Of a DNA stretch of 64,000 nucleotides, positions 1,341 through 30,658 are shown one piece after another. The number at the start of each line of letters is the position of its first letter. Position 1 is the stretch's first letter. This stretch comes from a virus (Duplodnaviria; Caudoviricetes). The position numbers and the translations under genes were made by a program. Under the pieces are notes generated by a model. That model was not told where the DNA came from. It was given only the letters and a program-made list of their open reading frames with translations, and searched no databases. The DNA lies in the IMG/VR virus record IMGVR_UViG_3300001598_001658, positions 32,001-96,000 of that record, one strand, 5' to 3'.

Positions 1341-1814
1341 CTATTTGTTGGCAATTTTTCCATCTTCTACATTGATAATTGAAACATTCATGTTTTTCAA
1401 TGTATCAATTGCTTCGTCATTTGATTCTTCTTTGATTTCATCAAGTAAGAAATCCAATGATGGACCAGCTGCTTCTTCGATTTCCTTAGCAATTGAATCC
1501 AATTCGAGCATTTTATCGCAGAAACATTTGTACTTTGTACGATCTGTTTCTTTGATAATTTCAAGTTCAGCAGTAAGACGTGGATTTGGAAAGAGATCAT
1601 CAAGACGTGTTGATTCTTCTTTTTCATCGATACGTTTTTTATCTGCATCACTGAGATCGATAGCTGCAATAGCTGCACTTGCATCTTCAAAACCAAGAAG
1701 GTTATTTGAAGGATCTGAAGCGAGTTTCTTTACAGCTCCTTTAGACATAAGTCCAGGTACATTCTGAATGAGGTTAAGAATTACCTTTGATTTTGTTGCA
1801 ACAGTAAGTTCCAT
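1341..1814 (-). CDS. hypothetical acidic protein
   Basis: Start reassigned to ATG 1814 (MELTV) behind GGAGGT; AACA-N6-TA motif upstream at 1848-1859. Confidence 0.75.
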   Translation of the reverse strand: MELTVATKSKVILNLIQNVPGLMSKGAVKKLASDPSNNLLGFEDASAAIAAIDLSDADKKRIDEKEESTRLDDLFPNPRLTAELEIIKETDRTKYKCFCDKMLELDSIAKEIEEAAGPSLDFLLDEIKEESNDEAIDTLKNMNVSIINVEDGKIANK

Positions 1815-1920
1815 TATACTTACCTCCATATAAAATATTAGTACTAATACAATTATGTTTTTAAAAAACGTATTAAAAATTAAATACGAATGTACATTAT
1901 AATGGGATAGATGATACAAT

Positions 1921-2172
1921 CAATGGCCGAACATTAATTGATTGTTCATCACGCGCTGCCGGCTTCGGTACGCAGAAACTATACTTAGTTATCTGTGGTG
2001 TGACCGCAATTATTATTGTCCGTTGAGATTCCGACCTGCTGCTATAAGCGGCCATTGCCGGATGTTGGGCGTCTTATACCGACGGCGTTTAAGGAGATTC
2101 GTCTAGATAGTTGATGAGTAGAGTATATAGATACTTGTTGATCCTGAGACTATTTAAGCGAATGTTCGGCCA
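1921..2172 (+). ncRNA. putative ~250-nt structured ncRNA, family unknown
   Basis: GC-enriched with no credible ORF; 12-bp closing stem 1924-1935/2161-2172; internal helices contain G-U pairs, which favours the + strand. Confidence 0.6.
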
Positions 2173-2186
2173 CCTATTTGTTTTAT

Positions 2187-2251
2187 GTGAACCTGTGGAA
2201 CCCTATAAAAGGATTTTCCCCTCCCACCCGTCCTTTTATCCACAGGTTCAC
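2187..2251 (+). ncRNA. long hairpin with C-rich loop (putative sRNA)
   Basis: Stems GTGAACCTGTGGA/TCCACAGGTTCAC and ATAAAAGGA/TCCTTTTAT; loop TTTTCCCCTCCCACCCG. Confidence 0.45.
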
Positions 2252-2274
2252 TTTATATATTTTTTGGATATAAT

Positions 2275-2354
2275 AGATACTGTACAAAACGCCATGTGAT
2301 TGTCAATCACTCCATTGTTAAAGAAATAGAAAACTCTAAATTTGTACAGTATCT
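2275..2354 (+). ncRNA. 14-bp-stem-closed element (putative sRNA or processing stem)
   Basis: Perfect inverted repeat AGATACTGTACAAA/TTTGTACAGTATCT. Confidence 0.4.
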
Positions 2355-20376: not shown

Positions 20377-20714
20377 AAAAAGAGTGGTATGATAGTGTAG
20401 GCGATACTAAAACAGACTTAGATCAAAATATAGCAAAAGCGGTAGACCAAATTGCTAAATTATTAGATTTAAAAGCTGAAGACGTTTACAAATATCCAAT
20501 ACCACTTCTTAATTCTATGGTGGCTGCAAGAACATCGAATCTTAAAGAATCTAGATATCGAGCCGAAAAAGATGGTCAGATCGATGTTTATACAAAAGAA
20601 GAATACTATGGTATGCAAGGTATTGTTCAAATTATTAACTCAATGTTTAGCGGCACTGGTGACAAAACTGATAAACCGAAAGGTGCTCAGAATATGTCAG
20701 CCATGGGTCGTTAG
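20328..20714 (+). CDS. -1 frameshift extension of the 18550 gene (gpGT/E'-like)
   Basis: The frame is open from the T7 run at 20328-20334 to TAG 20714, with no ATG/GTG/TTG until 20517. Confidence 0.6.
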   Translation, partial: FFYTRSHRGGSDRSVLEKEWYDSVGDTKTDLDQNIAKAVDQIAKLLDLKAEDVYKYPIPLLNSMVAARTSNLKESRYRAEKDGQIDVYTKEEYYGMQGIVQIINSMFSGTGDKTDKPKGAQNMSAMGR

Positions 20715-20733
20715 TTAAAATAGGTGGAAGAAT

Positions 20734-26687: not shown

Positions 26688-26713
26688 ACTCTACCCCATA
26701 TATAGGGTAGAGT
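26688..26713. terminator. bidirectional terminator
   Basis: Stem ACTCTACCC/GGGTAGAGT between convergent genes. Confidence 0.7.
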
Positions 26714-26721
26714 ATATTTTA

Positions 26722-27435
26722 TTATTCTTTTCGTTTTGGAGTTAAGACACGACTTTTTAAACATGCACCCTGCATGAATGTTCGAACAGTTTCCAATGAT
26801 TGAGAATCATTTAAATTAACATTACAATCACTATAATTAACCATTCCATGCTGTTCAATTTGATTCAACATTTTCATTTTACCAGGCATGTTATCTGCAC
26901 GAATAGTAAGCATCTCTTTTAATGTCTCAGTTTGATTGGTTGTAACGAGAGATGATGTTTGCATATCACCAATAGATGCAGCTTTACTATCACCTGTTAC
27001 CTGACCAGTTAATGGGTTACTGTGTTCTGTTGTACCGGCTGAGAAGTTTTTATGTTGTAAGAACTGTTGCATCTTACGAATATAAATAACTACTACAGGA
27101 ACAGGTGTAGCTGTAACAACAGGATGTTCTGGATCATCAGGATTAAGATGTGGAAAAGCAACATATTCTCTTAATTTAACATTATATTTTTTAGCAACTT
27201 TTTCAATATGTGAAATATCTACTACTTTATCGGTAGCTGTACTTGATTGATCGAGATCAACTGAAATATGAGTTTTAGCTGGATCTTCGTACATATTTCT
27301 CATAAAGATATCGAAGTCTTTATCAGACATTGTTGAAAATCTATATTTCCAAGGTTCAATATTTACCCCACTAGGATCGAGATCTTTAATCAATTGTAAT
27401 ATCTGTGCTTCGGCTTTCTTTCTTTTATCATTCAT
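26722..27435 (-). CDS. rpoB: RNA polymerase beta subunit C-terminal fragment (small subunit, probably virion RNAP)
   Basis: YIRKMQQ, NPLTGQVTG, IGDMQ and LKEMLTIRAD correspond to the RpoB C-terminal motifs (GEME, LQEMLTVKSD). Confidence 0.75.
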   Translation of the reverse strand: MNDKRKKAEAQILQLIKDLDPSGVNIEPWKYRFSTMSDKDFDIFMRNMYEDPAKTHISVDLDQSSTATDKVVDISHIEKVAKKYNVKLREYVAFPHLNPDDPEHPVVTATPVPVVVIYIRKMQQFLQHKNFSAGTTEHSNPLTGQVTGDSKAASIGDMQTSSLVTTNQTETLKEMLTIRADNMPGKMKMLNQIEQHGMVNYSDCNVNLNDSQSLETVRTFMQGACLKSRVLTPKRKE

Positions 27436-27529
27436 ATTATAGCCTCTCAATATTTATCTATATTTAATTGTCGTTTGTATTTTTATAAAATCTGTATCAA
27501 ACACCTAATATAAATTTATATTATTATTT

Positions 27530-28390
27530 GAAACAGATAATTGATTTCTGTTAATCCTTGATGTGAGTAAAATCACACATGGTCCTATGAACCTGATAGG
27601 TATGAGTACCGTCAGTAAAAATCATAGGAAAATATCTTCTGAGGAGAACTCAGGGTATTAGTGAAGTAGAAAGGTTTGTCTGCGTGAGAATCCGCACGTA
27701 TCTAGTAGTTTACTTTTGAAACACTTTATCCTTCATATCCAAAAGAGATTTCGCCCGATGTCTTAGACCAAAAGTGTCAAGACTAGGTACAAAAGAGTGG
27801 AATAACGGTGAGCGTATGTCCACAGTGTGATCCCGAAAGGGAATATGAATTATTAGCCCGAAAGGGTAGGATTAAAACGCTAGAAACGTCAATGCTGGTA
27901 GATGGGGTGTTGGCGCTAAAAACCTAGAAGCTCGATAAAAAGAGTGTTTATAGGTGACTGATGTAACGGAGGGTAGCTCGAGATTTCCTAAGTGATGTTT
28001 CTGTTTGATCGTTGATCGGATAGTTTAGATTTGCTATTTTGCGACATATTTCGCTAATAGTGAATCGCATTATATAGGAATTTAAAAATTCGGGTACAAG
28101 CGAACCGGCGCAGAGAGTCCATCACAAGAAAAGCAGAGTATGATCACGTGTCGTCGGAAATGCCGAGTATATTCGAACCTGGCTTGGCTATGCAAAAGCC
28201 TCCCAGGAGCCATGTTAATGTTTCCCTGAGGACGAGTGTTAGGGGTTGCGAAATCTTAGCTATAAGAAAGTAGTGTAAAGTGTGAAGAATAGTTGGATGC
28301 ATAATCCATCGATTTCATCAACCAGATGAATAGAGAAATGTCATATCAGCCGAGCACAGAGCCAAATCCGGAGGGCTCTGTGTTTGGTAT
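27530..28390 (+). ncRNA. large ornate structured ncRNA (~850 nt; GOLLD/ROOL size class, family unassigned)
   Basis: No ORF of 60 aa or more, raised GC, many nested helices, two CCC-GAAA-GGG GNRA hairpins, upstream promoter variant and downstream terminator. Confidence 0.8.
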
Positions 28391-28420
28391 TGGATATGTT
28401 TTATTTTTTTTATATTTTTT
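28350..28420 (+). terminator. terminator closing the large ncRNA
   Basis: Stem CCGAGCACAGAGCC/GGCTCTGTGTTTGG followed by long T tracts. Confidence 0.65.
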
Positions 28421-28582
28421 GAATCTTTATTATTCAAATATATTATATATAGAATGCGTTATTTAAGGAGTTTAAAATGGATAAAAATATAGAATCGTTT
28501 TATAATTTAAAATTTTATATTTTATAAAACTTAATATTATACAACATATAAAGAAAATAAATAAACAATATAGGAGAAAATA

Positions 28583-30658
28583 ATGAATGAAGCAAAAATA
28601 ACAAAACCCGTTGTTATGGAAATCAATACTGCTGATTTCACTAGAAAAGACAAATTAAAAGGTGAAGTTCAAACGTATGGACAAAAAGCTTATTCGAAAC
28701 TTTATGATTCTTTATGGAATTATATTTTCTTAGATTATAAAAGAAAAGATAATTTAATAAAAGTTGTGAGTATAAACGAAGCGAATGAACCAGTGTATGC
28801 GCATATGACTGCTGCAGAACTTTTGATTCATCTTATCTTTTGGAAACCATATGTAATTTACTCAAAATGTCTTAAGAGGAAAGTCGTTATCAAATCTGAT
28901 ACATTCTATAATCTTGAGAATTTTGATAAAAAGAAAATTACAAAAATTCTTAAAGATTTAGTGAAAGAGTTTTTACCAGATGCTGAAAATCGTCCAAATG
29001 GTATTAATGAACTTTCATATAATGTATCTTTAACAATTGATGATTTCTGTGAACTTATGAATTCTTATTGTGCAATTGCATCAAATACAATTTCACTTTA
29101 TGATATTCATCAGTTGGAAAAAAGAAGCCCTGAATTTGCTGATTGTTTGAATACACAGCTCGATGAATCTTTACCAACAAAGACAATTGAACAACAGTTG
29201 AAAAAAGGTGAAAGAAAAACAATTAAAGCTATTCTTGATGATAACAAATCATCTTTGGTAAATTATATTAAAGGTGGTCGTTTGACATCAGATCAGTTTA
29301 CACAAATGTTTTATGCAGTAGGTCCTCGTACTGATGTAGATAAAACAATTCTTCCGAAATTGATTAAAGGAAACTTCTTGAAAGGATATCAGTGTCCATC
29401 AGACGCATATATGGATGCTATTACAGGACGCGATGCTCAGATTCTTAAACACATTACGGTTCGCGATTCTGGTTATCTTTCGAGAAAAATTAATCTTTCT
29501 AATCTTAATACAAAGATCAATTATGCAATTGATGACTGTCACACACAACATACAGTTGCATATTATGTAGAAACAGAAGATCATCTTCAGTCTATTGATC
29601 TTAAATACATTGTAAAAGATAATGGAAAATTGTATCTTGTGCATGCAAGCAAAGATAAGGATCTTATTGGAAAAGTAGTACAACTGAGATCTCATATCGT
29701 ATGTGCGCTTCCTGAAGGCGAAGTGTGTATGACCTGTTTTGGAGAAAAAGCAAAACGATTAGCCGGAACAAACATCGGTGGACTCCCTGCTATCAAATTC
29801 GCAAACCCTATTTCCAAACGTTTGATGCGCGCTAAGCACTTTACTACTACTAACTCTGTTGATGTAAAATCTGAATACATGAGCAAATACTTTAATATTG
29901 AATCTAGTAAACTTTATTTCAAACCTGAAATGAAGAATAAAGAAGTCTTTGTTTGTGTTGATCGTGATATTATCGAAGATATTATGTCTGGAGCTACAGA
30001 TACAGAAGATGAATCGGTCGACTCTTCAACACCAATTGAATCAATTACAATTATGGATGGTGAAGAAAGATATACTATTGAATGTGAAGGTTTGTTCTTA
30101 GTTTTAACAAGTGAAATTTTGAATGAATCGAGCAAGTTTATTATGGAATATGATTCTGAAGAGGCATTAATTCCTGTAACTAAATTTGATAACGATACGC
30201 CTTTCTTCAATATGATTATTGTATCAGAAGCGGTTCAGCTTTATTTGAAACAAATCAAACGTATTATTGACTCATCTAAAACAAAAACATATTCAACTCC
30301 ATCTGCATTTATGAAAGATATTTCTGATGTTTTGATTGATATGGGTATTGCTGGTACATCTATTATTAACATCGAAACACTTATCTATCAGTTGGTGAGA
30401 AAACCGGATAAATTGTATGAAAGACCTGATTTCACAAAGCCAGATCCTGAAATCACAATTCTCCCTATTTCATCATCGATTCAGAATTCTGATATTTATA
30501 CAGCATTCGGATTTGAAAAACTTAAGCAACAGGTAACAAATGTTGATTCATTTATGAAGAAAGGAACTGGAATCTATGATCCTTTATTTAAAGTAAATAA
30601 ACCAAAGCATCTTATTCCTGTTGATAAAGAAACAATTGCTAAGGCTTTAGAAAAATAA
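28583..30658 (+). CDS. rpoC: RNA polymerase beta' subunit C-terminal part (probably non-virion RNAP)
   Basis: Bridge helix GRDAQ...DSGYLSRK; zinc site DC...RSHIVC...VCMTCFG; trigger loop NIG...PISKRLMRAKH; early-type promoter upstream. Confidence 0.88.
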   Translation: MNEAKITKPVVMEINTADFTRKDKLKGEVQTYGQKAYSKLYDSLWNYIFLDYKRKDNLIKVVSINEANEPVYAHMTAAELLIHLIFWKPYVIYSKCLKRKVVIKSDTFYNLENFDKKKITKILKDLVKEFLPDAENRPNGINELSYNVSLTIDDFCELMNSYCAIASNTISLYDIHQLEKRSPEFADCLNTQLDESLPTKTIEQQLKKGERKTIKAILDDNKSSLVNYIKGGRLTSDQFTQMFYAVGPRTDVDKTILPKLIKGNFLKGYQCPSDAYMDAITGRDAQILKHITVRDSGYLSRKINLSNLNTKINYAIDDCHTQHTVAYYVETEDHLQSIDLKYIVKDNGKLYLVHASKDKDLIGKVVQLRSHIVCALPEGEVCMTCFGEKAKRLAGTNIGGLPAIKFANPISKRLMRAKHFTTTNSVDVKSEYMSKYFNIESSKLYFKPEMKNKEVFVCVDRDIIEDIMSGATDTEDESVDSSTPIESITIMDGEERYTIECEGLFLVLTSEILNESSKFIMEYDSEEALIPVTKFDNDTPFFNMIIVSEAVQLYLKQIKRIIDSSKTKTYSTPSAFMKDISDVLIDMGIAGTSIINIETLIYQLVRKPDKLYERPDFTKPDPEITILPISSSIQNSDIYTAFGFEKLKQQVTNVDSFMKKGTGIYDPLFKVNKPKHLIPVDKETIAKALEK

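What the first reader, a model, noticed from the sequence alone, without database searches (positions are those of the whole stretch)
27530..28390. An ~850-nt ornate non-coding RNA between two divergent phage RNA polymerase genes
Seen: this ~1.1-kb ORF-free gap is clearly more GC-rich than its flanks and folds by eye into two domains. Domain 1 is closed by TTGA-TTTCTG-TTAATCCT (27541-27558) pairing with AGGATTAA..TAGAAA..TCAA (27868-27892). It contains TCCTATGA/TCATAGGA (27583/27622), CTGAG/CTCAG, GTATCTAGT/ACTAGGTAC (27698/27782), ACACTTT/AAAGTGT and two CCC-GAAA-GGG tetraloop hairpins (27831-27842, 27856-27867). Domain 2 is closed by GCTGGTA (27894) with TATCAGC (28344) and contains further helices such as TTCCTA/TAGGAA, CCTGG/CCAGG, a GCGA-capped hairpin near 28238-28260 and TTCATC/GATGAA. 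A TTATATTAT promoter variant lies at 27516 and a terminator at 28350-28420. G-U pairs favour the + strand. Known: large ornate RNAs of this size class (GOLLD, ROOL) occur in phages and have no established function. Inference: this is a stand-alone, probably early transcript that is either a divergent member of those families or a new class. Its position between RNAP subunit genes raises an untested link to transcription.
Basis: partly seen in the sequence, partly recalled or inferred. Interest (0 to 1): 0.92.

Follow-up and report, generated by a model that had tools for sequence, protein, structure and literature searches.

The report
Orphan large RNA gene in jumbo phage
An uncultured gut jumbo phage carries, in a slot where its relatives have nothing or a small protein gene, a self-contained gene for an RNA of about 850 bases that makes no protein and matches no catalogued RNA family. 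Its fold could not be confirmed by comparison with other sequences, and its job is unknown.

Summary
That covers the gene-free GC-rich stretch, every named helix, the two GAAA hairpins, the promoter word and the terminal hairpin.

The stretch is non-coding and is a separate transcription unit. It runs from a phage early-type promoter (TATATTAT-N5-GAA) to a 14-bp hairpin. About 940 bp was inserted into a variable cargo slot between two divergent RNA polymerase genes.
- Five relatives have an empty slot.
- Four relatives carry protein genes there.

So a link to transcription is not supported.

A variant about 95% identical sits at the same place in gut samples from three studies, including contigs from an RNA library. 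The RNA has changed less than its protein-coding neighbours, which suggests it is under selection.

Rfam gives no match, so it is not a detectable GOLLD, ROOL, intron or RNase P RNA. I found no more distant homologue anywhere, so covariation could not be tested.
- The variant's changes fit the predicted fold no better than random changes do.
- The folding energy is only moderately unusual for this genome.

My reading is a probable new, orphan, large structured phage RNA carried as accessory cargo (confidence about 0.55). This scan has reported other unlisted large jumbo-phage RNAs, none similar in sequence to this one.

The parts
27488..28430 (+). Inserted cassette of about 940 bp (promoter, RNA, terminator). 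It is absent from the closest relatives, and the boundaries are approximate.
   Evidence: The window's intergenic flanks align with the 156-181-nt gaps of L002, L004, L025, L026 and L027. Contigs of run X4 bridge both junctions in an independent sample (27463-27665 and 28330-28482).
27517..27532 (+). Phage early-type promoter TATATTAT-N5-GAA. The transcript probably starts near 27530.
   Evidence: TATATTAT occurs 71 times in the genome, 36 of them in the 8.8% that is ORF-free. 27 copies have GA[AT] 4-6 nt downstream, including this one and the polymerase gene's own promoter at 28439. The predicted phiKZ-group promoter is TATATTAC (PMC7058600 Table 2).
27541..27892 (+). Domain 1.
   Evidence: Fold of this stretch alone gives -95.7 kcal/mol. 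z is -2.86 with 100 shuffles. 9 of 10 variant substitutions and both indels fit the fold, but P = 0.18.
27831..27867 (+). Two GAAA-tetraloop hairpins 25 nt apart (27831-27842 and 27856-27867).
   Evidence: In the variant, the closing pair of the first hairpin changes C27834-G27839 to U-A, a compensatory double change.
27893..28350 (+). Domain 2, closed by GCUGGUA (27894-27900) with UAUCAGC (28344-28350).
   Evidence: Fold alone gives -130.6 kcal/mol. z is -2.49 on + and -0.96 on -. The inner part around 28150-28250 is not supported by the variant.
27986..28079 (+). Three-way sub-domain. Its basal helix carries CCUAAG (27987-27992) opposite UAUAGG (28072-28077), one base away from the canonical 11-nt GAAA-tetraloop receptor.
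   Evidence: The variant's U27986C and A28076G give exactly CCUAAG...UAUGG with the helix kept in a shifted register (my reading).
28350..28412 (+). Terminal 14-bp hairpin (28350-28363 with 28374-28387, 10-nt loop). A T-run follows from about 28399, so it is a probable terminator that is not canonical.
   Evidence: (inverted repeat I3). The consensus scan did not list it because of its long loop and the distant T-run.
28439..28454 (+). The polymerase gene's own promoter, conserved in relatives that lack the RNA. It marks the RNA as a separate unit.
   Evidence: The same word with the same flanks (TTATTCAAATATATTATATAT) occurs in L002 and L003.

Best explanation
The stretch is an independent gene for a non-coding RNA of about 830-860 nt on the + strand. 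It starts near 27530 and ends at the hairpin 28350-28387. The phage's own polymerase most likely transcribes it early, from a TATATTAT-N5-GAA promoter.

It is accessory cargo, a 'moron' made of RNA. A promoter-to-terminator cassette was inserted recently into a variable slot between two divergent RNA polymerase genes.

The RNA most likely acts as a folded molecule. It has two domains, each closed by a long-range helix, and it may be compacted by a GAAA tetraloop docking on the receptor-like motif at 27987/28072. I take it to be a scaffold, decoy or RNA-only particle in the infected cell, in the manner of the large phage RNAs ROOL and GOLLD. I do not take it to be an antisense RNA or a leader.

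Shown: no coding capacity, the insertion, the promoter type, presence in an RNA library, and sequence conservation.

Inferred: the fold, the early timing and the mode of action.
For: - Non-coding. Stop density is random in all six frames. The longest stop-to-stop peptides match nothing in Pfam or PHROGs, and one of them nothing credible in 1.84 billion proteins.
- Not a remnant of the relatives' slot genes (tblastn best E 0.4).
- Own promoter of the genome's recurrent type, and a 14-bp terminal hairpin. The downstream gene keeps its own conserved promoter.
- GC is 0.39-0.47 in a 0.30 genome, the usual signature of structured RNA in AT-rich genomes.
- Strand asymmetry of folding.
- Two contigs from a metatranscriptome library, 340 and 430 nt, lie wholly within 27550-28292.
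- A variant about 95% identical sits at the same place in runs of three studies.
- The RNA differs at 2.0-3.3% of positions in domain 1 and 5.3-5.6% in domain 2. Most contigs over the flanking genes differ at 4-7%. All eight listed differences in the 242-aa gene fall at third codon positions (my arithmetic). The RNA is therefore changing well below the neutral rate.
- One compensatory pair (27834/27839), and a paired change that creates a canonical tetraloop receptor.
Against: - No homologue beyond the 95% variant was found in any collection I could reach, so there is no covariation test.
- The variant's 32 listed substitutions fit the predicted fold no better than random ones: P = 0.18, 0.38 and 0.43. 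Its folding energy is not significantly better than that of random mutants: P = 0.32 and 0.19.
- Eight substitutions break predicted pairs in domain 2.
- Per-domain z-scores of -2.9 and -2.5 are unremarkable against the genome-wide mean of -2.2.
- The RNA-library evidence consists of assembled contigs only. It shows no strand, no ends and no expression level, and DNA can be present in such libraries.
- The terminal hairpin is not a canonical intrinsic terminator.
- Low divergence could also come from a recent exchange of the cassette between the two lineages.
Confidence: 0.55

Rival explanations
1. It is a transcribed but functionless insert: foreign, GC-richer DNA that recombination between promoter-like AT-rich sequences brought into the cargo slot. 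It would be read from a captured promoter and have no selected fold.
For: - Found only in one shallow lineage, with five relatives lacking it.
- No homologue anywhere.
- The variant's substitutions are not biased towards fold-compatible changes.
- The z-scores are ordinary for this genome.
Against: - It is less diverged than the neighbouring essential genes, whose listed changes sit at third codon positions.
- It has a complete promoter of the phage's own type with the correct spacing to GAA, and a terminal hairpin.
- It has tetraloop hairpins and a receptor-like motif.
- There is no trace of decayed coding sequence.
Confidence: 0.2
2. It is a long structured leader or extra upstream promoter for the 691-aa polymerase gene, that is, a cis-regulator of polymerase expression. 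The terminal hairpin would be a regulated or leaky terminator.
For: It is on the same strand as the polymerase gene and lies directly upstream. The hairpin is not followed at once by a U-run, so read-through is plausible.
Against: - The polymerase gene keeps its own promoter between the hairpin and the start codon. That promoter has the same sequence as in relatives without the RNA.
- Five relatives express the same gene without any such leader.
- The same slot holds unrelated protein genes with their own terminators in others.
Confidence: 0.08
3. It is a highly diverged member or remnant of a known large RNA class (GOLLD, ROOL, a group I or II intron, or RNase P RNA) that the Rfam models fail to recognise.
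For: - The size (about 850 nt), phage origin and gut or rumen-type habitat match GOLLD and ROOL (PMC12286853).
- GAAA tetraloops with a receptor-like motif are typical of introns and RNase P.
Against: - No hit to any of 4227 models, even at E <= 10 with lax filters on 1.2 kb.
- It is not beside tRNA genes; the nearest are 25 kb away.
- It is intergenic and has its own promoter, so it is not an intron.
- No long GNRA-capped hairpin resembling group II domain V, and no RNase P P4 complement, seen by eye.
Confidence: 0.07
4. It is a DNA-level element such as a replication origin or a packaging site.
For: It is the largest ORF-free gap of the record and lies between divergent genes.
Against: - No iterons, tandem repeats or AT-rich unwinding block lie inside it.
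- It is GC-rich rather than AT-rich.
- It is absent from close relatives, which must also replicate and package.
- It is bounded by a promoter and a hairpin.
Confidence: 0.04

Closest known systems
GOLLD and ROOL RNAs, the large 'ornate' RNAs of phages and prophages (Kretsch et al., PMC12286853)
   Same: They are phage-borne, 0.6-0.8 kb or more, non-coding, multi-domain and of unknown function. ROOL was first found in rumen samples. Both are abundant RNAs thought to act without a protein partner.
   Different: There is no match to either Rfam model. This RNA is not next to tRNA genes. It carries an early-type promoter, whereas GOLLD rises at lysis. No family of homologues, no covariation, no predicted pseudoknots and no loop-loop complementarity were found.
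Phage 'morons': independent promoter-to-terminator cassettes inserted between conserved genes (the concept of Hendrix and colleagues, cited from my own knowledge)
   Same: It is a self-contained transcription unit present in one lineage and absent at the same junction in close relatives. The same slot carries other cargo in other relatives.
   Different: Classical morons encode proteins. This one encodes an RNA.
Other unlisted large jumbo-phage RNAs reported earlier in this scan (e1-323081, e1-5655868, e1-5374059) and the second RNA of about 850 nt in this same genome (e1-5821159)
   Same: They are GC-elevated, ORF-free, promoter-to-terminator units of 0.5-0.9 kb in jumbo phages, with no Rfam match.
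   Different: There is no sequence similarity to the second RNA of this genome. There are no look-alikes in the scan's index. According to those notes, the others have families of homologues, and this one has none.
11-nt GAAA tetraloop receptor (CCUAAG...UAUGG) of group I and II introns and RNase P
   Same: CCUAAG lies opposite UAUAGG in a helix. The natural variant has exactly CCUAAG...UAUGG. Two GAAA hairpins are available as partners.
   Different: The window's own copy has one extra base, so it is not canonical. Docking is inferred and has not been tested.

Membership tests
GOLLD RNA (Rfam) | Match to the family covariance model (conserved 3' domain) | tested here: not met
   No hit at the gathering score on the whole window, nor at E <= 10 on 27400-28600.
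GOLLD RNA (Rfam) | Usual context next to tRNA genes in a phage or prophage | tested here: not met
   It is in a phage, but the nearest tRNA genes are at 2366-2730. ARAGORN finds none in 27300-28700.
ROOL RNA (Rfam) | Match to the family covariance model | tested here: not met
   Searches give no hit.
Group I / group II introns | Interrupts a gene on the same strand, and matches the catalytic core models | tested here: not met
   It lies between divergent genes and has its own promoter. There is no Rfam intron hit at E <= 10.
RNase P RNA, tmRNA, 6S, rRNA fragments | Match to the family models | tested here: not met
Phage moron (independent accessory cassette) | Own promoter and terminator, and absent at the same junction in close relatives | tested here: met
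   Promoter. Hairpin. The slot is empty in L002/L003, L004, L025, L026 and L027, and holds other cargo in L005, L006, L009 and L010.
Structured non-coding RNA (general) | Covariation that preserves base pairs among homologues | tested here: inconclusive
   Only one variant about 95% identical is available. It shows one compensatory pair, and overall compatibility is not above chance.
Structured non-coding RNA (general) | Folding energy beyond shuffled controls and beyond the genome background | tested here: inconclusive
   z is -4.6 for the whole stretch including the terminator, and -2.9 and -2.5 per domain. The genome background mean is -2.2, and terminator-free windows lie between about +0.7 and -1.7.
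phiKZ-type early promoter | TATATTA(C/T) word upstream of the start, recurrent in intergenic regions | tested here: met
   That the virion polymerase uses it early is inferred from phiKZ and was not tested.

The most novel reading that the evidence does not exclude
This is the founding member of a new class of large phage RNA. It would be an early-expressed, protein-independent, two-domain RNA held together by tetraloop-receptor docking, possibly assembling into a higher-order RNA-only particle. The phage would have gained it as mobile cargo, and it would help take over the host or blunt a host defence.
Probability: 0.25. Interest if true: 0.75.

Novelty: new variant of a known kind. Interest (0 to 1): 0.5.

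Why it matters
Large, intricately folded RNAs without a protein partner are rare. The two phage-borne classes known, ROOL and GOLLD, turned out to build RNA-only cages whose purpose is still unknown. A third, unrelated RNA of that size would widen that small set if three things hold: that it is expressed early, that it travels as a swappable cassette, and that it is selected. It would also show that phages trade RNA genes the way they trade accessory protein genes.

Without homologues the case rests on composition, gene architecture and shallow conservation. For now it is a lead for experiment, not a result.

Tried and rejected
Homologue searches that found nothing useful:
- blastn at distant sensitivity against 50,697 phage records.
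- Protein-anchored scans of IMG/VR with the flanking polymerase, alone and as an alignment. These found no relatives there.
- Five exact-word scans of IMG/VR and two of JGI metagenomes, using words from the best-conserved parts of the RNA. The five hits were chance 18-20-mers with no extension.
- BLAST of the RNA against the two bacterial bins that carry related phages.
- BLAST against 399 genomes of that class. This gave only 20-50-nt AT-rich chance matches with unrelated flanks.
- BLAST against 106 genomes of the Anaeroplasmataceae family.
- nhmmer and short-word BLAST against the phage's own genome. There is no paralogue and no meaningful complementarity.

Search through spurious ORFs:
- I tried to reach Logan and ENA contigs through spurious ORFs called inside the RNA. 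Thirteen exact look-ups and one exhaustive HMMER search with the 69-aa stop-to-stop frame found nothing.

Other checks:
- Pseudogene of the relatives' slot genes: rejected.
- Hidden coding under another genetic code: rejected.
- Kissing loops: no complementarity of 5 nt or more between predicted loops.
- Transposon-like ends: only AT-rich, promoter-like inverted matches at the borders.
- Run X1 gave no contig over the flanking genes, and its contigs stop at 27550 and 28292. Because these are contigs of a run chosen for holding this stretch, I do not use the missing cover or those ends as evidence of abundance or of RNA ends.

Full report
**What is there**

The window is part of a 145-kb IMG/VR virus record judged about half complete. 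Its GC is 0.30. Between a 242-aa gene on the minus strand (26722-27450) and a 691-aa gene on the plus strand (28583-30658) lies a 1132-bp gap, the largest ORF-free stretch of the record. Both genes match PHROG families of jumbo-phage RNA polymerase beta pieces.

Folding each proposed domain alone reproduces both closing helices. GC rises to 0.39-0.47 inside the stretch, against 0.25-0.31 outside, with a positive GC skew.

**It does not code for protein**

- Each of the six frames carries 19-29 stops made up of all three stop codons. This is the density expected of random sequence of this composition, so no stop reassignment helps.
- None of the short ORFs is in the 15-billion-protein collection.
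- The eight longest stop-to-stop peptides match nothing in Pfam or PHROGs.
- The longest (69 aa) has no credible relative among 1.84 billion representatives.
- Proteins that occupy the same slot in relatives show no similarity to the stretch (best E 0.4 on a 1.2-kb target). Those genes are GC-poor, at 0.23.

**It is a separate, inserted transcription unit**

The word TATATTAT occurs 71 times in the genome, and 36 of these lie in the 8.8% that is ORF-free. 27 copies are followed 4-6 nt later by GA[AT]. The copy at 27517 (TATATTAT-TATTT-GAA) fits this pattern and puts the start near 27530. The word is the T-ending version of the predicted phiKZ-group promoter TATATTAC (PMC7058600, Table 2). That phiKZ uses this word for early, virion-polymerase transcription is my recollection of the phiKZ literature, so early timing here is an inference.

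The unit ends in a 14-bp hairpin (28350-28387). A T-run begins about 12 nt after it. The consensus scan did not count this as an intrinsic terminator.

Downstream, the polymerase gene has its own promoter at 28439. That promoter sits in the same sequence context as in relatives that lack the RNA.

**The slot in relatives**

The 691-aa protein has relatives at 81% identity and below in ENA, Logan and NCBI assemblies. It has none in IMG/VR.

| Slot content | Relatives |
|---|---|
| Empty; the two polymerase genes lie 156-181 nt apart | Five relatives at 72-81% identity (L002/L003, L004, L025, L026, L027) |
| RCC1-like repeat protein gene(s) | Three relatives at about 61-62% (L005, L006-L008, L010) |
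| A 74-aa gene with ribosome-binding site and terminator | L009, on a 186-kb contig binned with an Anaeroplasmataceae genome |

The position is therefore a cargo slot. The RNA is a recent gain of about 940 bp, and the neighbouring polymerase genes say nothing about its function.

**Natural variant and RNA evidence**

Four public runs from three studies hold part of the stretch. Laid on 26700-29300, they show a lineage about 95% identical.
- The same substitutions recur in all four runs.
- DNA-type contigs bridge both insertion borders (27463-27665 and 28330-28482). The cassette is therefore real and sits at the same place in independent samples.
- In the metatranscriptome library X1, two contigs of 340 and 430 nt lie wholly within 27550-27888 and 27868-28292. 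This is compatible with an RNA product. However, they are contigs without strand or end information, and DNA can be present in such libraries.

**Conservation**

- The RNA differs at 2.0-3.3% of positions in domain 1 and 5.3-5.6% in domain 2.
- Most contigs over the flanking genes differ at 4-7%, and two contigs of run X3 at about 15%.
- The AT-rich spacer after the hairpin differs at about 6.5%, plus gaps.
- All eight differences listed for the 242-aa gene fall at third codon positions. This is my own arithmetic from the gene's frame.
- A stretch of 117 nt (27653-27769) has no change at all.

A non-functional insert should drift at least as fast as synonymous sites, and this one is clearly slower. 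A recent exchange of the cassette between the lineages could mimic that pattern.

**Is the fold supported?**

Only partly.

*Energy*
- The whole stretch folds at -261.7 kcal/mol, with z -4.6 (20 shuffles). The opposite strand gives z -2.3. That stretch includes the terminal hairpin.
- With 100 shuffles, domain 1 gives z -2.86 on + and -2.55 on -. Domain 2 gives -2.49 on + and -0.96 on -.
- Twenty-four random 400-nt windows of the same genome average -2.2.
- The six most extreme windows (z -3.65 and below) each contain a perfect terminator hairpin.
- The 16 windows with z above -2.7 range from +0.7 to -1.7.
- So the domains are more stable than ordinary coding sequence, but not strikingly so.

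*Variant, in favour of the fold*
- The closing pair of the first GAAA hairpin changes C-G to U-A (27834/27839).
- The single-base deletion lies in the linker between the two hairpins.
- The 2-nt insertion lies at a helix junction.
- Five changes in the 27986-28079 sub-domain keep pairs through G-U intermediates.
- U27986C together with A28076G turns CCUAAG/UAUAGG into the canonical GAAA-receptor pair CCUAAG/UAUGG, with the helix preserved in a shifted register.

*Variant, against the fold*
- Eight changes break predicted pairs in domain 2.
- The count of fold-compatible changes is not above what random changes of the same kinds give (P = 0.18, 0.38 and 0.43).
- The variant's folding energy is not better than that of random mutants (P = 0.32 and 0.19).

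The detailed model of 28150-28250 is probably wrong. The fold as a whole remains a prediction.

**What it is not**

- Rfam 15 gives only two tRNAs in the whole window.
- On 27400-28600 at E <= 10 it gives nothing credible. The best hit is a 24-bit match of the terminal hairpin region to an unrelated sRNA model.
- ARAGORN finds no tRNA or tmRNA.
- It is therefore not a detectable GOLLD, ROOL, OLE, HEARO, intron, RNase P or rRNA piece.
- It is not next to tRNA genes, the usual home of GOLLD and ROOL (PMC12286853).
- The same genome has a second ORF-free, tRNA-adjacent stretch of about 850 nt (L022, about 1460-2350, minus strand). That stretch also has no Rfam match and is not similar to this one.

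**Search for relatives**

None were found beyond the 95% variant. The searches are listed under Tried and rejected. The collections that hold this phage's kin (Logan, ENA) could only be reached through exact protein sequences. An empty result there is therefore weak evidence of absence.

**Verdict**

- The best reading is a stand-alone, probably early, non-coding RNA gene of about 850 nt, carried as swappable cargo and under sequence constraint. It belongs to no catalogued family.
- The ornate fold and any function are unproven.
- The suggested link to transcription is not supported.
- I put 0.55 on a functional structured RNA and 0.2 on a transcribed but functionless insert. The rest is spread over a leader, an unrecognised known class, or a DNA element.
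- It is one more candidate among the unlisted large jumbo-phage RNAs this scan has reported. It is weaker than those that have families of homologues.

Noticed in passing
L022:1460-2350 (minus strand) = G000:C1 about 121960-122850, outside the window: A second ORF-free stretch of about 850-900 nt (GC 0.36) lies directly after three tRNA genes on the minus strand. It has no Rfam match at E <= 1 and no sequence similarity to the RNA studied here. Its tRNA-adjacent context is the one typical of GOLLD and ROOL.
   Followed up: partly
window 28465-28528: A mini-ORF of 16 codons (ATG at 28478) with a good ribosome-binding site (AAGGAG at 28465) lies between the polymerase gene's promoter and its start codon. 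The roughly 55 nt that carry it are absent from the closest relative L002.
   Followed up: no
window 28214-28217 and 28248-28251: In the 95% variant, two different predicted hairpin loops (GUUA and the GNRA loop GCGA) have both become AUGA. This could be coincidence, or a sign that the two loops share a partner.
   Followed up: no
L005:2752-3867, L010:1127-2242, L006:2985-3850: In more distant relatives the same slot holds an RCC1 / WD40_RLD-like repeat protein gene with its own promoter and terminator. In L006 it is split into 77-aa and 201-aa genes.
   Followed up: partly
whole genome; examples in the window at 2837, 6346, 25469, 28439, 33571, 37090: A recurrent promoter word TATATTAT-N4-6-GA[AT] appears 27 times in the record, mostly before + strand genes. 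It would allow an early-gene map of this phage.
   Followed up: partly
window 20377-20733, and 1920-2365 beside the tRNA genes: There are further ORF-free gaps with raised GC: 0.35 for the first, and 0.38 for the whole gap 1920-2877 that holds the two tRNA genes. I did not examine them.
   Followed up: no
L009 (contig JBOFSX010000157.1, 186 kb): A related jumbo phage (72% identity in the polymerase piece) is binned with an Anaeroplasmataceae genome, and another relative with a 'Bacilli bacterium'. This is a hint at the host group, but it rests on binning only.
   Followed up: no
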